A DNA stretch of 64,000 nucleotides from positions 36,581 through 100,580 of the forward strand of contig JABDGV010000002.1 in assembly GCA_013285825.1 (NCBI GenBank), in the 5' to 3' direction. This document shows positions 38,687 to 45,437 of this stretch, in pieces. The notes beneath the pieces are model-generated. The model saw only the letters and a list, made by a program, of their open reading frames with translations. It ran no database searches and was not told the DNA's origin. The position numbers and the translations under genes are program-made. The DNA comes from Bacteroidota bacterium (GTDB lineage: Bacteria; Chlamydiota; Chlamydiia; Chlamydiales; FEN-1388). Each line of letters starts with the position of its first letter. Position 1 is the stretch's first letter.

Positions 38687-38757
38687 GCGCCTGTAGTTCA
38701 ATGGTAGAACTGTAGCCTTCCAAGCTACGAGCGTCAGTTCGATTCTGACCAGGCGCT
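38687..38757 (+). tRNA. tRNA-Gly (anticodon TCC)
   Basis: Acceptor stem gcgcctg/caggcgc, D-arm tagttcaatggtagaac, anticodon arm gtagc-cttccaa-gctac, T-loop gttcgattc; CCA not encoded. Confidence 0.96.
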
Positions 38758-40174: not shown

Positions 40175-41479
40175 TTATTCCGGCACCACATCCAAAAAGA
40201 CAAATTCGCTTCTCTGATTGCTCGAGTTTACTGCGCGAACCTTATACTTTTCGTGTAGATATTTCTGGTATTTGCGGAACCAATGGTGAGAGAAGGGATC
40301 CTGGGGATGGAGAGGTTTTTCAAAAACAAGAGGAGCGTTACTTGGCACAATTGCGAGAAGCTGGTCAAAGGCAAAGATCTCATAGGATATGACATCCGTT
40401 GACACGCTTGGAAGCCATTGGCTTTTTAATTTAAACTTGCCGTGTTGATGAAGAATTTTTCCGCTAAATTGGAAGGGAGGAAACGGGGTTAGATTTGAAT
40501 TTCCCTGATGAGGCGCAAAGGCTATATACTGGGGGGATAATCCAACAAGAATCGAAGGCACGACTACCGTATTGGTGCTGATATCAATAACTGAAACGTT
40601 GTTAGAGTTTTGATTGACAACATAAGCAAATTTGCCATCAGGAGAGATCGCAATGCCTAGCGGAATTACTCCAACAGGAATTGAAGGGACAATGACTGTA
40701 TTCGTACTTGTAGCTATTACGGTAACATCATTAGAGAGGGAATTTGTCACATAGGCAAATTTGCCATCAAAAGTGATCGCTATGCCTAACGGATCTGTTC
40801 CAACAGGAATTGAGGGGACAGTGACTGTATTCGTGCTCGTATCTATTACTGTAACATCATTAGAAACTTCATTTGTCACATAGGCAAATTTGCCATCTGG
40901 GGTAATTGCTATGCCTATCGGAGCTGTTCCAACAGGAATTGAGGGGACAGTGACTGTATTCGTACTTGTATCTATTACTGAAACATCATTAGAGCCGTTA
41001 TTTGTCACATAGGCAAATTTGCCATCAGGAGTGAATGCTATACCTTCTGGGTTGGTTCCGACAAGTATTGAGGGGACAGTGACGGTATTGGTTGTGGTAT
41101 CAATAACTGTAACGTTGTTAGAGACGTCACTTGGCACATAGGCAAATTTGCCATTAGGGGTGATTGCTATGCCCCCATCCGGATCTGTTCCAACAGTAAT
41201 TGAGGGTACAATCACTGTGTTCGTTGTGAGGTCCACAACACACACGCTAGCCAAACCTTCATTTACAACATAGGCAAATTTTCCGCCAGGAGTAATGGCA
41301 ATGCCTATTGGACCGCTTCCAACTGGAAGAGCAATAGGCGAGCCCACAACTGTATTGGTGGCCGTATCAATAATCGATATGGTATCGGATCCGTTATTAG
41401 TCACATACCCAAAAGGGGCAGCGTAAAGTGACCCTGTAATACAGACGAAAGAAAAAAAGATAGATTGTACGAGTCTCAT
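40175..41479 (-). CDS. Orphan secreted YVTN beta-propeller protein with FN3-like C-terminal domain (class B)
   Basis: Signal peptide, seven highly homogeneous YVTN repeats, same tail as the array genes. Confidence 0.9.
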   Translation of the reverse strand: MRLVQSIFFSFVCITGSLYAAPFGYVTNNGSDTISIIDTATNTVVGSPIALPVGSGPIGIAITPGGKFAYVVNEGLASVCVVDLTTNTVIVPSITVGTDPDGGIAITPNGKFAYVPSDVSNNVTVIDTTTNTVTVPSILVGTNPEGIAFTPDGKFAYVTNNGSNDVSVIDTSTNTVTVPSIPVGTAPIGIAITPDGKFAYVTNEVSNDVTVIDTSTNTVTVPSIPVGTDPLGIAITFDGKFAYVTNSLSNDVTVIATSTNTVIVPSIPVGVIPLGIAISPDGKFAYVVNQNSNNVSVIDISTNTVVVPSILVGLSPQYIAFAPHQGNSNLTPFPPFQFSGKILHQHGKFKLKSQWLPSVSTDVISYEIFAFDQLLAIVPSNAPLVFEKPLHPQDPFSHHWFRKYQKYLHEKYKVRAVNSSNQRSEFVFLDVVPE

Positions 41480-41586: not shown

Positions 41587-44019
41587 CTATTTCCCCTTGG
41601 CTTTCGTTGCTTTGCTTTTTGCAGTTGGTGATTTGGTAGCTTTGGCTTTGGTAGCTTTTGTTTTCGTAGCTTTTGCCTTGGTCGTCTTTGCTTTGGTCGT
41701 TTTGGCTTTTGTTTTGGCAGGCTTTTCTGAAGCCTGTTTTTTCCCACGCTTAGGCTTTTTGACAGAGGCTGTTTTTGGGTGACCGGCAAATTTAATTTCA
41801 ATATCTTCGATGCTGTTTCCAATGACGTCGCAGTCGGGATATTCACTGCAGGACCAGAAGAGTTTGCCGAAGCGCGACCGTTTTTGAGTCAGCATACCTT
41901 CGCAGCCGACAGCTGGGCATTTTTGGCTCTCTTCAGGAACAAATACCGTCTCCCCTTTCTTCGGGATGTTTACGATCCCTTTACATTCGGGATAGGTTGA
42001 GCAGCCTAAGAAGGGGCCGAACTTGCCAAAGCGCACCTTCATCTCGCTTCCGCACTTAGGGCATTTTTGTTCCCAATCAAAGTTTTCATCATACTCTGAC
42101 TTATCAAATGCTGCCTCTTCTACAGATGAGGTCCAGGAGCAAGTTGGGTAGTTCGTGCAGCCCAAAAAGTACTTATTCTTAAACCAGATTTTTTGGACTA
42201 CGCCGCCGCACAGAGGACAGATCATATCTGTCTGCACTTTGGGGACGAAGGCTGTATCTTCAGCTTTTTGGAGTGTTGGCGAAAACTCATCCCAGAACGT
42301 TTTCAAAAGCTTTTTCCAGGAATACTTTGCAGCTCCAACATCTTCTAAAGCATCTTCCATTTCTGCCGTAAAGCCGACGTTGACGATCTTGTCGAAGTTT
42401 GCTTCCATCATCTCGGTAACTACGCGGCCAAGTTCGGTTGGCTTTAATCGCCCCGCTTCTTTGTGCGTGTAGTCTCGGCTTTGAATCTTATTCATGATGG
42501 TGGCGTAGGTCGATGGACGGCCAATGCCCGATTTTTCAAGCTCTTTAACTAATGTCGCTTCTGTATAGCGAGCGGGTGGACGGGTAAAGGCTTGATCCGC
42601 ATCGACATGGTCCAAGAGAAGCTTTTGATTTTCTTCAAGGTTTGGAAGAAGGGGCTCTTTTTCCTTTTCCTCTTCTTCATCCTCTTTTTCTTCGTAGAGG
42701 GTTAAAAAGCCTGGGAATATGATCTGAGAGCCAGTAGTGCGGAGGAGGAATCGAGGGGTGGCTTCAATATCAACCGATACTGTGTCATAAATTGCTGAAG
42801 CCATTTGAGAGGCAACAAATCTTTTCCAGATAAGCGTGTAGAGCAGATGCTGTTCACGGCTTAAAAAGGGTCGGACGACATCTGGCGTTAAAAGCACATC
42901 GGCTGGACGGATCGCTTCGTGGGCATCTTGCGCAGATTTTTTCGTCATGTATTTGCGAGGAGCTTCTGGCAGAAACTGTTGGTCAAAGCCATTTTTGATA
43001 TAGCTTCTCGCAGCATCAATAGCTTCATCAACAACCCGTACGGAGTCGGTACGCATATAGGTAATGAGACCCTGTGTTCCCTTTTCTCCTAAATCAATAC
43101 CTTCGTAGAGATCTTGGGCGACTTGCATTGTTTTTGCAGGAGAGAAGCGATAGTGGCGGCTTGCTTCCTGTTGGAGCGTTGATGTAATAAAGGGCGCTTC
43201 AGGGTTTCTTTTCTTTTCTTTGCGTTCGATTCGCGTGATGGCATAGGGGCTGTTTTCCAGCTGCTTTTTGATCTCTTCGCCAATGGTTTGGTTGTTTATT
43301 AAGAAGACATCATCAGCCGTTTTGCCCTCTGGGATTTGTTTCTCAACCTTTTTTCCATCAACTTCGATAAGAGCTGCTTTAAAGAGCGGGTCTTGAGGTT
43401 CTCGTTTGAGGTGGGCAATAAGGTTCCAGTACTCTACTGGAACAAAGGCTTCAATTTCTCGTTCTCGATCGACAACAAGCTTTAAAGCGACTGATTGTAC
43501 ACGGCCTGCGGAAACAGGCTCGCTTCTGCCTCGGCGCAGCCGTCGGTTGAGAAGCGGAGAAATAGAATAGCCTACCAAGCGGTCTAATATTCGGCGCGCC
43601 TGCTGGGCATCAACGAGCGCCATATCGATTGCGCGAGGATGCTTGAGGGCGTCTTTAACAGCTTCTTTGGTGATGGAATTGAAGGTTACCCGCTGAATGT
43701 CGCATTTTTCAGGCAGCAGCTGGCTTATGTGCCAGGCGATGGCTTCACCTTCTCTATCCGGGTCGGGAGAGAGATAGACCACATCTACCTCTTTAGCAGC
43801 TTTTTTGAGGCGGTCGATCACATCTTTTTTGCCCGCCATAGGCACATAGGAGGGTTCAAAATCGTGTTCAATATCTACTCCCATGCCTGACTCAGGCAGA
43901 TCTCGGACATGGCCATAGGAGGATTCAAAAATAAAGGATGAGCCTAAAAACTGTTTGAGTGATTTGATTTTAGCTGGAGACTCAACGATTATGAGAGATT
44001 TAACTGAAGTTTTTGCCAT
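41587..44019 (-). CDS. topA: DNA topoisomerase I with three Zn ribbons and a Lys/Ala/Thr-rich tail
   Basis: IVESPAK, DPDREGEAI, SAGRVQS, LITYMRTDS and GIGRPSTY motifs. Confidence 0.97.
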   Translation of the reverse strand: MAKTSVKSLIIVESPAKIKSLKQFLGSSFIFESSYGHVRDLPESGMGVDIEHDFEPSYVPMAGKKDVIDRLKKAAKEVDVVYLSPDPDREGEAIAWHISQLLPEKCDIQRVTFNSITKEAVKDALKHPRAIDMALVDAQQARRILDRLVGYSISPLLNRRLRRGRSEPVSAGRVQSVALKLVVDREREIEAFVPVEYWNLIAHLKREPQDPLFKAALIEVDGKKVEKQIPEGKTADDVFLINNQTIGEEIKKQLENSPYAITRIERKEKKRNPEAPFITSTLQQEASRHYRFSPAKTMQVAQDLYEGIDLGEKGTQGLITYMRTDSVRVVDEAIDAARSYIKNGFDQQFLPEAPRKYMTKKSAQDAHEAIRPADVLLTPDVVRPFLSREQHLLYTLIWKRFVASQMASAIYDTVSVDIEATPRFLLRTTGSQIIFPGFLTLYEEKEDEEEEKEKEPLLPNLEENQKLLLDHVDADQAFTRPPARYTEATLVKELEKSGIGRPSTYATIMNKIQSRDYTHKEAGRLKPTELGRVVTEMMEANFDKIVNVGFTAEMEDALEDVGAAKYSWKKLLKTFWDEFSPTLQKAEDTAFVPKVQTDMICPLCGGVVQKIWFKNKYFLGCTNYPTCSWTSSVEEAAFDKSEYDENFDWEQKCPKCGSEMKVRFGKFGPFLGCSTYPECKGIVNIPKKGETVFVPEESQKCPAVGCEGMLTQKRSRFGKLFWSCSEYPDCDVIGNSIEDIEIKFAGHPKTASVKKPKRGKKQASEKPAKTKAKTTKAKTTKAKATKTKATKAKATKSPTAKSKATKAKGK

Positions 44020-44034
44020 TTATTACTACTCTTA

Positions 44035-44067
44035 ATAAAAAGAAGAGGGGGAGATTTCTCTCCCCCT
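44035..44067 (-). terminator. Intrinsic terminator just upstream of the topA start
   Basis: agggggaga-GAAA-tctccccct 9-bp stem followed by cttcttttatt on the minus strand. Confidence 0.7.
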
Positions 44068-44600
44068 GGATGCTTAGAAGGTGATCGAAACCGATCCTTC
44101 TACCCAGCAAATACTTTCGGAAGAGGCCTTTTCAGCAGTCTCGCCAAAGATTGGCACAATACGGCTGTAGGGCGATCCGCTTTCTGGGAGCAAGCGGAGG
44201 TCGCTTCCTCGACCGAGCTCGACATCTTCAAGCACGGTCATTGATTCTGCAACATACATGTTTGCCTCGAAGTTCGAGGTCCATTCTACAGTGATTAAAA
44301 CCCCTCTGCTCCCAGAACAGTTTTAATTTGGTCACCGTAAATGATCCCATTTGGGATGATCTAAATTTGTTTCATCCTGCGCTTGAAGTCTTAGATCTTC
44401 AACTCTAGCCAGGTTAAATTCTATCTAACAAAACTGTTTTTTACCCTCACAAATCGTAATCGATCTGTGCCATCTGTCCTTTTAAGAACGAATTCTTAAA
44501 AGCGCTATCTGTGTAAATGTCACCTCCTTCACGCCTTTTACAAGGCAGATAGATGGGCAAGTTGGTACCTTTTCAGTCCCAACTAATTCCTTGTGTACCA
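44035..44600 (-). ncRNA. Candidate large structured RNA (~560 nt), family unassigned
   Basis: About a dozen hairpins, UUCG/GUAA/GAAA loops, G-U pairs valid only on the minus strand, 11-nt loop-loop complementarity, 3' terminator; boundaries approximate. Confidence 0.65.
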
Positions 44601-44714
44601 TTCGGGGTGAAATATTAGCAAATAGTTCTAATACAAGATATATTTAAAATTATACTCATCCTAAGCACAGTGTCCGAATTAGGTAGGGTATAGCCTAACT
44701 TAAGGTGTCATCTT

Positions 44715-45437
44715 TTAAGTACCCGCAACATCAAATAGCGATAAAGAGCCGTCTTGGATCAAGGGCATAATCTTTGCCGCTATCTCATCAGGGACTCTAT
44801 TTCCTGCGCTTTTCAACCCTAAGAGTTGCTTGAGTTGACCTGCCGTTTTAGAAAGCTCAATTTTGTTGTCTGTTTTCGAGAAGATGGCAAGTCTAGCCAG
44901 GAGAATATAGCTATAGGTAGTTGGGAATTGATTTTGAAGGTTCGGGGTTGCAAGAAGCGTATCCGTACTTGCCAACGCTTTATCCCATTCCTCACTGCTG
45001 AGAGCTTGGCTCATAGAGTTTATTTGTTCAAAAAGAGAAAGCTCTTGGTTTTTTAAAAATCGGTGTGCTCCATGCAGATAGGGCGTTGATTTTTTTGCTT
45101 CATGGGAGATTAAGAGCTCTTGTCCTATCAGCCCCTGTTGCTGCTGATAAATCGATGTAGATGACTCAGCACATTCTTTGAGTTTAGCAACGAGCTGCAG
45201 GCGCTCATCAGGTTCTATTTTTGAAATATCATCTTTGATGAGTTTTGATGCAATCAAGTCGGCCTCAATTGTCTGATCGATTCGAGAATCAGTTTTATGA
45301 GTGAAAAAGAAGAGGATAAGAAGAAAAATAAATAGGAAAGCAGTAACTCCAAGGGCACACTGCTTGCCATACTGTTGAAACCAAAGCAGGGCATAGTCTA
45401 AAAGAGTTGGTTTTTCAGGTGAGTTTTTTTGTGTCAT
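44715..45437 (-). CDS. Hypothetical single-pass membrane protein (helical, possibly YfgM/TPR-like)
   Basis: 240-aa ORF with one N-terminal TM helix; divergent from parB. Confidence 0.65.
   Translation of the reverse strand: MTQKNSPEKPTLLDYALLWFQQYGKQCALGVTAFLFIFLLILFFFTHKTDSRIDQTIEADLIASKLIKDDISKIEPDERLQLVAKLKECAESSTSIYQQQQGLIGQELLISHEAKKSTPYLHGAHRFLKNQELSLFEQINSMSQALSSEEWDKALASTDTLLATPNLQNQFPTTYSYILLARLAIFSKTDNKIELSKTAGQLKQLLGLKSAGNRVPDEIAAKIMPLIQDGSLSLFDVAGT

What the first reader, a model, noticed from the sequence alone, without database searches (positions are those of the whole stretch)
44035..44660. Unassigned ~560-nt ornate structured RNA upstream of topA, with a kissing-loop signature
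Seen (minus strand): nearly continuous pairing. Examples are a 10-bp stem with UUCG loop (44479-44502) and a GUAA-capped stem (44533-44546) inside a multibranch closed by 44468-44475/44551-44559, stems at 44560-44584, 44448-44469, 44413-44429, 44287-44339, 44172-44204 and 44075-44102, and a GAAA-capped terminator (44046-44067). Three stems contain G-U pairs that would be A-C mismatches on the plus strand. The loops of two distant hairpins are exact 11-nt complements (44307-44317 and 44182-44192), suggesting a pseudoknot. CTGAAAAGG occurs near both ends, an AAGGAGGTGA has no ATG behind it, and a TATAAT lies at 44649-44654. I see no tmRNA ends, RNase P GAGGAAAGUCC or group II domain V. Inference: a new large ncRNA, or a giant topA leader/attenuator since the terminator ends about 16 nt before the topA start.
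Basis: partly seen in the sequence, partly recalled or inferred. Interest (0 to 1): 0.88.

Follow-up and report, generated by a model that had tools for sequence, protein, structure and literature searches.

The report
Small-protein mRNA with orphan ribosome-binding site
The supposed large non-coding RNA upstream of topA is the long, folded messenger of a small conserved protein of unknown function, and its leader carries a perfect ribosome-binding sequence with no gene behind it.

Summary

The region is not a non-coding RNA. Bases 44259-44074 (minus strand) encode a 61-aa protein. Its frame is kept open in the one congeneric genome and in 20 of 23 genomes of the family, with in-frame indels, dN/dS of 0.25-0.6, and a C-terminal motif ending in F-stop. 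Databases call its relatives only 'hypothetical protein'.

The shared module is:
- a long leader with an orphan 10-nt complement of the 16S rRNA 3' end, 89-383 nt before the AUG (exact 8-mer core in 15 of 16 loci with enough upstream sequence);
- a hairpin over the true ribosome-binding site;
- the small ORF;
- a strong hairpin after the stop codon, a clear intrinsic terminator in about 14 of 18 loci;
- then (dprA-)topA.

In this genome only 26 nt separate the terminator from the topA AUG, so topA probably depends on read-through. This is inferred, not shown.

My reading is a small-protein mRNA under translational control of the standby or STAB-SD type, which also serves as the topA leader. 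A leader-peptide attenuator is the main rival. No transcript data exist.

The parts
44649..44676 (-). Promoter-like site, CGGACA-16-TATAAT. It would start the RNA near 44642.
   Evidence: 10 of 12 matches, and the only minus-strand site between 43900 and 44900. Prediction only. The orphan SD at 44520-44530 requires a start upstream of it.
44260..44642 (-). 5' leader of about 380 nt, folded into several hairpins.
   Evidence: MFE. From about 44425 downstream it is 65% identical to the congener. Upstream of that it is 43% identical, which is the neutral level. The architecture around the orphan SD is still shared.
44520..44530 (-). Orphan Shine-Dalgarno sequence GAAGGAGGTGA, 268 nt before the AUG, with no start codon behind it.
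   Evidence: The core 8-mer is present once in 15 of 16 related loci with at least 226 nt of upstream sequence. It is the exact complement of the 16S 3' end ...GATCACCTCCTTT read in two family members. The 10-mer occurs 4 times in the 1.68-Mb assembly.
44479..44502 (-). 10-bp hairpin with UUCG loop, directly after AUAGCGC.
   Evidence: I3. The congener has a different 10-bp hairpin at the same place after the same AUAGCGC. By eye, 8 of 10 pairs are changed on both sides.
44344..44357 (-). Hairpin AUCCC-AAAU-GGGAU.
   Evidence: It is kept in the congener, with A-U changed to G-U, which works only on the minus strand.
44307..44317 (-). Leader arm of the 11-nt complement (UUCUGGGAGCA).
   Evidence: I2. 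Invariant in the congener. RNAalifold pairs it with 44182-44192.
44265..44279 (-). Hairpin CCUCGA-ACU-UCGAGG, whose 3' arm holds the true SD (GAGG), 5 nt before the AUG.
   Evidence: The stem is identical in the congener, with a loop change C to G. The -40..+6 window folds at -8.3 kcal/mol, against -4.8 +/- 3.0 for 44 long ORFs of the window.
44074..44259 (-). Small ORF of 61 aa (P0001), including its stop codon.
44182..44192 (-). ORF arm of the 11-nt complement (codons 23-26), in the loop of hairpin UCCGCUU/AAGCGGA.
   Evidence: One C-G to U-A exchange in that stem between the two congeners.
44076..44101 (-). Hairpin AGAAGG...CCUUCU over the last 9 codons and the first base of the stop codon.
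   Evidence: A hairpin is predicted here in most relatives, but the peptide motif persists where synonymous changes break it.
44036..44067 (-). Intrinsic terminator: 9-bp stem, GAAA loop, then a U-rich tail. The stem starts 6 nt after the stop codon and ends 26 nt before the topA AUG.
41587..44019 (-). topA (810 aa).
   Evidence: Topoisom_bac 1.3e-120, plus Toprim and zinc ribbons.

Best explanation
Bases about 44642-44036 (minus strand) are one transcription unit. It is the mRNA of a conserved 61-aa protein of unknown function, with a leader of about 380 nt, ended by an intrinsic terminator directly in front of topA.

**Shown here**
- The ORF is under protein-level selection.
- The ORF belongs to a family found through most of this chlamydial family.

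**Shown as a conserved module**
- A leader carrying an orphan, perfect complement of the 16S rRNA 3' end.
- A hairpin over the real, weak ribosome-binding site.
- The ORF, ending in a fixed C-terminal motif.
- A strong hairpin after the stop codon, with a clear U tract in most loci.

**Inferred**
- The orphan site holds a 30S subunit on the leader.
- That subunit either waits for the start-site hairpin to open (ribosome standby) or shields the RNA from decay (as STAB-SD does).
- The small protein is therefore made under translational control.
- In this genome RNA polymerase must read through the terminator to express topA, so the unit also acts as the topA leader and sets its level.
For: **Coding**
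- The same frame, start and stop are kept in the congener, found by DNA search.
- The only indel is one codon. Differences by codon position are 20/12/29, and dN/dS is 0.34 against 0.8 and 2.0 in the shifted frames.
- There are 28 amino-acid differences in 60, against 35.2 +/- 2.6 for randomly placed changes (P 0.005). A frame stays open in only 20% of such randomisations.
- Third-codon positions of topA are 45% identical between the two genomes, so neutral sites are saturated.
- HMMER against 1.84 billion representatives finds two further relatives at E about 3e-11.
- A profile finds the ORF in 18 of 21 topA loci of the family and in 2 more genomes, making 20 of 23 genomes. It also finds it in 2 of 8 loci of family f31.
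- Lengths range from 52 to 84 aa.
- In the 9 genomes of genus g8, whole-ORF dN/dS is about 0.25-0.8, mostly 0.25-0.6. The variable middle gives 0.24-0.31 in the 4 pairs with unsaturated dS that I worked out.
- The C-terminal motif is kept through synonymous and conservative changes.
- 28 database clusters match, all named 'hypothetical protein' or unnamed.
- A partial relative in run X2 is 97% identical over 44154-44304 against 92% over the topA 5' end. The one difference listed there is synonymous.

**Module**
- Orphan SD.
- No consistent intramolecular partner for the orphan SD in 16 loci.
- Start-site hairpins with different stems in different genera.
- A strong hairpin starting 2-23 nt after the stop codon in 18 of 18 loci, with stems differing between genera. 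About 14 carry a clear U tract.
- No promoter-like site between the terminator and topA.

**Conserved structure with the congener**
- Alifold z is -8.4, with 0 of 200 column shuffles as good. The leader favours the minus strand, -27.95 against -19.35 kcal/mol.
Against: - No RNA data. No listed run is on record as RNA. The promoter is only a consensus match.
- The protein has no predicted fold apart from its last 11 or so residues: pLDDT 57.7 overall, 87 for residues 51-60.
- Pairing of the SD in the MFE is not distinctive. It is at least half paired in 13 of 18 loci, but also in 9 of 15 control genes of the window.
- The orphan SD is not predicted to be more accessible than the rest of the RNA: unpaired probability 0.35 against 0.41.
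- Only some helices survive transfer between the two congeners. Of the pairs in which a base changed, 25 are kept and 39 are broken.
- L040 and L046 show no U tract after the hairpin, and L050 and L057 have only poor ones.
- In G003 an opposite-strand gene lies between the module and topA, so the link to topA is not obligatory.
- The congener has 276 nt between the ORF and topA, which leaves room for topA to have its own promoter there.
Confidence: 0.6

Rival explanations
1. Cis-acting leader peptide. The ORF matters because it is translated, not for its product. Its conserved C-terminal peptide stalls the ribosome at the stop codon, as TnaC does. Alternatively, a ribosome arriving at the stop codon melts the foot of the terminator. 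Either way, translation sets read-through into (dprA-)topA.
For: - Only the last 12 or so residues and the first 3-4 are conserved. The middle varies in sequence and length, and the motif ends exactly at the stop codon in all 47 aligned members.
- The rest of the protein is predicted to be disordered.
- The terminator stem starts 6 nt after the stop in G000 and G001 and 4 nt after it in L049. From general knowledge, that is within reach of a terminating ribosome.
- There is no room for a promoter before topA here.
- In genus g8 the dprA frame abuts or runs through the terminator.
Against: - The spacer is 10-12 nt in g8, L053 and L057, and 18-23 nt in L044 and L042. That is probably out of reach of a ribosome at the stop codon.
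- The variable middle is still under purifying selection, dN/dS about 0.25-0.3.
- In G003 the complete module is followed by an opposite-strand gene, not by topA.
- I looked by eye, in g8 only, for an alternative antiterminator pairing and found none.
- I read no conserved run of regulatory codons in the alignments.
Confidence: 0.2
2. Dual-function RNA. The folded RNA of about 600 nt acts by itself, for example as a sink for 30S subunits or as a base-pairing regulator, and also encodes the small protein.
For: - Structure is conserved inside the ORF between the congeners, including compensatory changes where the peptide is variable (alignment columns 273-301).
- The 11-nt leader-ORF complement is invariant.
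- The orphan SD is conserved across the family.
Against: - The elaborate leader is specific to the genus. In g8 the leader shows only the orphan SD, the start-site hairpin, the ORF-end hairpin and the terminator as consensus structure.
- No target or partner is known.
- The plus strand folds about as well over the ORF.
Confidence: 0.1
3. Type I toxin-antitoxin-like module. A tightly folded, translationally locked mRNA for a small toxin, opened by processing and controlled by an antisense RNA.
For: Closed start site, an upstream 30S-binding element and a long-range leader-ORF pairing are the hallmarks of tisB- or hok-type mRNAs (abstracts of PMC6690012 and PMC7708055; the hok comparison is recalled).
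Against: - The peptide sequence shows no hydrophobic stretch long enough to span a membrane.
- No PADLOC or Pfam match.
- The one plus-strand promoter-like site, 44615-44644, lies in the leader and reads away from the ORF.
- The locus is single-copy and syntenic with topA across a family, unlike mobile toxin loci.
Confidence: 0.04
4. Pure non-coding structured RNA, or a decaying remnant of the dprA gene that occupies this position in relatives.
For: - No Rfam or Pfam match.
- Strong folding z-scores.
- dprA lies just upstream of topA in many relatives and was not found anywhere in G000 or G001.
Against: - The frame is conserved across at least 11 genera with in-frame indels and dN/dS below 1.
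- A dprA profile finds nothing in the gap in any of six frames; best E is 0.32 with a negative score.
- In relatives that keep dprA, the small ORF sits upstream of it and so is a separate gene.
Confidence: 0.03

Closest known systems
STAB-SD, the Shine-Dalgarno-like stabiliser in the 5' UTR of Bacillus thuringiensis cry3Aa mRNA (passages read in PMC12970973; Agaisse & Lereclus 1996 seen only as a citation there and in PMC7509114)
   Same: An SD-complementary sequence far upstream of the start codon (position -125 there, -89 to -383 here). It starts no ORF and sits in a long leader transcribed from a distant promoter.
   Different: That case is in Firmicutes and protects a processed 5' end. Here no processing or stabilisation has been shown, the organism is a chlamydia, and the element is coupled to a small ORF with a hairpin over its start site and to a terminator before topA.
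Ribosome standby site of E. coli tisB mRNA (abstracts of PMC6690012, PMC7708055 and PMC5934652)
   Same: A stable inhibitory structure at the real ribosome-binding site, plus a 30S-binding element about 100 nt upstream in a highly structured mRNA for a small protein.
   Different: The tisB standby site is a single-stranded region bound through protein S1, not a perfect anti-SD complement. TisB is a membrane toxin under an antisense RNA. Here the peptide is not hydrophobic and no promoter-like site was found opposite the ORF.
tnaC leader peptide of the E. coli tryptophanase operon (abstracts of PMC8450073, PMC8429421 and PMC3902921)
   Same: A small upstream ORF whose conserved residues run up to the stop codon, with a transcription termination point between it and the structural genes.
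   Different: TnaC has 24 residues and acts on Rho-dependent termination (recalled). Stalling is unproven here. The peptide is 52-84 aa, and in one genome the module is not followed by a co-directional gene.
B. subtilis hbs mRNA (abstract of PMC5737220)
   Same: Ribosomes bound at a strong SD protect a structured mRNA for a small protein, and pairing between distant parts of the mRNA takes part in the control.
   Different: There the strong SD is the functional start site. Here the strong SD is an orphan and the functional one is weak (GAGG).

Membership tests
Any Rfam family (tmRNA, RNase P, OLE, GOLLD, ROOL, riboswitches and so on) | Covariance-model score at or above the family's gathering threshold | tested here: not met
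   the only hit in the window is a tRNA at 38687-38757; on 43900-44800 at E up to 10 there are four plus-strand rows, best 23.3 bits against a threshold of 59; no tmRNA.
STAB-SD-type orphan SD | A sequence complementary to the 16S rRNA 3' end, located in the 5' UTR far from the start codon | tested here: met
   GAAGGAGGTGA at 44530-44520, 268 nt before the AUG. The 16S 3' end ...GATCACCTCCTTT was read in G022 and G019. No 16S was found in G000 or G001.
STAB-SD-type orphan SD | Not used to start translation | tested here: met
   No ATG, GTG or TTG lies 4-12 nt behind it in G000 or in the nine g8 loci. The only GTG lies inside the element itself.
STAB-SD-type orphan SD | Binds 30S and lengthens mRNA half-life | not testable with these tools
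   Needs half-life measurements with and without the element.
Ribosome standby (tisB type) | A stable structure over the real ribosome-binding site | tested here: inconclusive
   The hairpin is present and conserved in the genus. The SD is at least half paired in 13 of 18 loci, but also in 9 of 15 control genes.
Ribosome standby (tisB type) | An accessible upstream 30S landing site | tested here: inconclusive
   Predicted unpaired probability of the orphan SD is 0.35 against 0.41 for the whole RNA across 16 loci. No consistent internal partner was found.
Leader-peptide transcription attenuator | A short ORF followed by a terminator upstream of the regulated gene, with no promoter in between | tested here: met
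   G000: the terminator is 6 nt after the stop and 26 nt before the topA AUG, with no promoter-like site. A hairpin follows the ORF in 18 of 18 loci. L040 and L046 lack a U tract and L050 and L057 have poor ones.
Leader-peptide transcription attenuator | An alternative antiterminator pairing, or ribosome position deciding terminator formation | tested here: inconclusive
   The spacer from stop to stem is 4-6 nt in 3 loci but 10-23 nt in most others. I looked for an antiterminator by eye in g8 only and found none. In G003 the module is not followed by a co-directional gene.
Type I toxin-antitoxin | A small hydrophobic or otherwise toxic peptide with a cis-antisense RNA | tested here: not met
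   No hydrophobic stretch in the peptide sequence. No PADLOC hit. The only plus-strand promoter-like site lies in the leader and reads away from the ORF. Toxicity itself was not tested.
dprA (PF02481) pseudogene | Residual similarity to DprA in any frame | tested here: not met
   best E is 0.32 at -0.7 bits; tblastn E is 0.79 or worse.

The most novel reading that the evidence does not exclude
The unit is a ribosome-sensing attenuator of topoisomerase I. A 30S subunit parked on the orphan anti-SD complement licenses translation of a closed small ORF. The ORF's invariant C-terminal peptide, ending at the stop codon, holds the ribosome against the terminator. Read-through into (dprA-)topA would then follow the cell's translational state. 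This would be a nascent-peptide control of DNA topology not described in any bacterium.
Probability: 0.15. Interest if true: 0.75.

Novelty: new variant of a known kind. Interest (0 to 1): 0.5.

Why it matters
- It replaces a claimed new large ncRNA with something testable: an unnamed small-protein family of 52-84 aa, annotated only as hypothetical.
- The family is tied by position to topA, and to dprA where that gene is present, across environmental chlamydiae.
- Its mRNA carries a perfectly conserved orphan ribosome-binding sequence.
- Orphan SD elements have been studied in Firmicutes (STAB-SD), and standby sites in E. coli toxin mRNAs. A conserved one in chlamydiae, in front of the gene for topoisomerase I, gives a concrete handle on how these organisms set topoisomerase levels. 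TopA balance is known to matter for the Chlamydia developmental cycle (abstract of PMC10865786).
- It is also a caution that strong folding z-scores and an absent Rfam hit do not make a region non-coding.

Tried and rejected
**dprA remnant.** Rejected.

**Known protein family.** Nothing in Pfam, NCBIfam, PADLOC or PHROGs (best E 0.17), nor in PDB sequences, where the best row is a designed protein at E 0.0033 over 15 residues with no stretch passing on its own. The ESM Atlas gives no family.

**Structure prediction.**
- With the 2-row alignment: pLDDT 52.3.
- With 47 rows: pLDDT 57.7, with only the last block confident.
- No fold search was run because the models are too poor.

**Binding of the small protein to TopA.** One complex-prediction job returned no verdict, score 0.00. 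This is no evidence either way.

**More DNA homologues.**
- Both metagenome scans found nothing. The genome-contig scan returned only the congener.
- The order search with the single protein and the phylum search with a 4-row profile found only G000 and G001. The wider family was reached only by looking at topA-upstream loci.
- DNA for P0002, P0003 and the 28 clusters could not be fetched. This left the 11-nt pairing untestable for covariation.

**Other families.** 0 of 12 loci in f35, 0 of 8 in f7 and 0 of 8 in f4 show the ORF with this profile. The profile sees little beyond a 12-residue motif, so this is not proof of absence.

**Leader-ORF duplex in other genera.** A coarse duplexfold test gave z between -1.9 and +0.9 in 16 loci, so there is no support.

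**Expression.** No RNA holder is listed among the 2 runs found.

**Literature.**
- (topA, Chlamydia, promoter, supercoiling, leader): 54 papers held at least 4 of the terms. The 10 listed showed nothing on a topA leader ORF. I did not read them beyond the listing and abstracts.
- Supplementary files were not consulted.

Full report
**Setting.** The finding lies in the 695-nt gap between topA (41587-44019, minus strand; Topoisom_bac 1.3e-120) and a 240-aa hypothetical gene (44715-45437, minus; no Pfam family). The window is part of a 1.68-Mb, 45-contig assembly that is 75% complete. So does a sister family of 1.0-1.2-Mb genomes.

**Observation.** All listed sequence features are present.
- No Rfam family reaches threshold, and ARAGORN finds nothing.
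- The minus strand folds at -205.2 kcal/mol, z -6.1. The plus strand gives z -5.3.
- The 3' 390 nt carry most of the signal, z -5.3. The 5' 290 nt give z -2.4.

**The one close relative.**
- A DNA search of 61 related genomes gave one real match, the congeneric G001: 72% identity over window 44284-44061.
- That stretch is a 61-codon ORF (44259-44074). G001 keeps it with the same start and stop and one codon fewer.
- Differences fall 20/12/29 by codon position. dN/dS is 0.34 in frame, against 0.8 and 2.0 in the shifted frames, which also contain stop codons.
- Placing the same 61 changes at random gives 35.2 +/- 2.6 amino-acid differences, against 28 observed (P 0.005). The frame stays open in only 20% of trials.
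- Third-codon positions of topA are only 45% identical between the two genomes, so neutral sequence is saturated.
- Accordingly the far 5' part of the gap is 43% identical, while the leader from about 44425 is 65% and the ORF 68% identical.

**RNA structure shared with the congener.**
- RNAalifold on the 3' 400 nt gives -78.1 kcal/mol, z -8.4 against column shuffles (0 of 200 as good).
- The leader is better on the minus strand (-27.95 against -19.35 kcal/mol). The ORF part shows no strand preference.
- Transferring each genome's own MFE to the other is sobering. Of the G000 pairs in which a base changed, 25 are kept and 39 are broken. Only some helices are conserved:
  - a hairpin at alignment columns 33-66, with three double changes;
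  - AUCCC/GGGAU;
  - the hairpin over the SD;
  - an ORF hairpin at columns 273-301, with two double changes;
  - the hairpin presenting the ORF arm of the 11-nt complement, with one C-G to U-A exchange;
  - the ORF-end hairpin;
  - the terminator, which has different stems.
- Further upstream MAFFT misaligns the sequences. Both genomes nevertheless have the orphan SD, then AUAGCGC, then a perfect 10-bp hairpin of unrelated sequence, then GGACAG.
- The 11-nt complement is invariant on both sides and RNAalifold chooses it. Such a repeat arises in 4% of shuffles, and with no variation it cannot be tested.

**The protein family.**
- A single-sequence search of 401 genomes of the order found nothing beyond G001. 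The word-index search found nothing either.
- HMMER against 1.84 billion representatives found two relatives, P0002 and P0003, at E about 3e-11. It also returned two repeat proteins that I judge spurious.
- The break came from synteny. I fetched the topA 5' region of all 21 family genomes that have topA. In many of them dprA lies directly upstream of topA.
- A dprA profile sees no remnant in the G000 or G001 gap. PF02481 was found nowhere in either genome (G000 is 75% and G001 94% complete).
- Scanning all upstream frames with the small-protein profile found the ORF in 18 of 21 loci. It was absent from L039, L041 (the locus is cut off) and L045.
- A 47-row profile then found it 2.3 kb upstream of topA in G003 and on another contig in G009. 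That makes 20 of 23 family genomes.
- It is also present in 2 of 8 loci of family f31. This profile did not see it in 12 loci of f35, 8 of f7 or 8 of f4.
- Members are 52-84 aa. They begin M-[IYSL]-[AV]-[ST], have a variable middle, and end [IV]-x-[WYT]-[IV]-[EDK]-G-[TS]-x-x-[VI]-[AST]-F-stop. G55 and F61 are invariant in 47 sequences.
- In genus g8, whole-ORF dN/dS is about 0.25-0.8 (mostly 0.25-0.6) and about 0.24-0.31 in the middle.
- The C-terminal residues are encoded by varied codons (GGA/GGT/GGG; TTC/TTT; the penultimate A/S/T with all four third bases). They persist where those changes break the local hairpin. Selection therefore acts on the peptide as well as on the RNA.
- 28 database clusters match. 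They are named 'hypothetical protein' or left unnamed, and none has a Pfam domain.
- AlphaFold gives no fold except for the last decade of residues.

**The conserved module.**
  - GGAGGTGA occurs once, 89-383 nt before the AUG, in 14 of the 15 topA loci with at least 226 nt upstream. The fifteenth has AGGAGGTGG. G003 has it as well.
  - It is the exact complement of the 16S 3' end read in two family members.
  - The 9-mer occurs once in the 64-kb window and the 10-mer four times in the assembly.
  - No consistent intramolecular partner is predicted, which points to the ribosome as its partner. It is not predicted to be especially accessible.
- *Start-site hairpin.* A hairpin carries the real, weaker SD in its 3' arm. 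Its stems differ between genera: CCUCGA/UCGAGG, CACC/GGUG, CUACC/GGUAG, CCUAC/GUAGG and UACCUA/UAGGUA. In G000 this region is more stable than 86% of 44 control start regions. A cruder measure does not separate the family from controls: 13 of 18 against 9 of 15.
- *Terminator.* A GC-rich hairpin begins 2-23 nt after the stop codon in 18 of 18 loci. Stems differ between genera and covary within g8. Two loci (L040, L046) lack a U tract and two more (L050, L057) have poor ones.

**Relation to topA.**
- In G000 the terminator stem ends 26 nt before the topA AUG, and no promoter-like site lies between them.
- In g8 the dprA frame abuts or runs through the terminator.
- In these genomes the downstream genes therefore seem to depend on read-through. 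This is an inference.
- Against an obligatory link, G001 has 276 nt between the ORF and topA, and G003 has an opposite-strand gene in between.

**Verdict.**
- The region is the mRNA of an unnamed, conserved small protein with an unusually elaborate leader. It is not a new ncRNA.
- The likeliest mechanism is translational control through a 30S subunit held at the orphan SD, either as standby for a closed start site or as protection of the STAB-SD kind. The terminator would make the unit the leader of topA in this genome.
- The main rival is a cis-acting leader peptide whose invariant C-terminus acts at the stop codon.
- Nothing here rests on expression data.
- Literature was seen only as follows: abstracts for PMC6690012, PMC7708055, PMC5934652, PMC8450073, PMC8429421, PMC3902921, PMC5737220 and PMC10865786; passages for PMC12970973; a reference-list entry for PMC7509114. 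The 1996 STAB-SD paper itself was not read.

Noticed in passing
window 40620-41224 (inside the minus-strand gene 40175-41479): A 129-bp tandem repeat, 4.7 copies at 81% identity, lies inside a 434-aa beta-propeller (lactonase-like) gene. It shows up as a ladder of 40-aa ORFs on the opposite strand.
   Followed up: partly
G000 and G001, whole assemblies: dprA (PF02481) was not found in either genome of this genus (75% and 94% complete). In most relatives dprA sits between the small ORF and topA. The genus may have lost the DNA-uptake protein.
   Followed up: partly
L043, L047, L048, L050-L052, L054-L056 (genus g8), just after the small ORF: The dprA reading frame is open through the terminator hairpin. 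Its first possible start is a TTG inside the last codons of the small ORF, an 11-nt overlap. The apparent N-terminal motif W-D...P-T-F of these DprA proteins is the translation of the hairpin arms.
   Followed up: partly
L095 2019-3188 (G003): A 389-aa gene on the opposite strand lies between the small-ORF module and topA. In the sister species G013 the module is 358 nt from topA.
   Followed up: no
window 44715-45437 and the ORFs upstream of the small gene in L002 and L044: The 240-270-aa hypothetical protein upstream of the module, which has no Pfam family, looks conserved in position. The three copies end in a similar short C-terminal segment.
   Followed up: no
run X2, pieces on window 43901-44028 and 44154-44304: A second metagenome holds 151-nt contigs from a close relative. 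They are 92% identical over the topA 5' end and 97% identical over the start of the small ORF and its leader.
   Followed up: partly
window 38687-38757 (+): A tRNA gene, the only Rfam match in the window.
   Followed up: no
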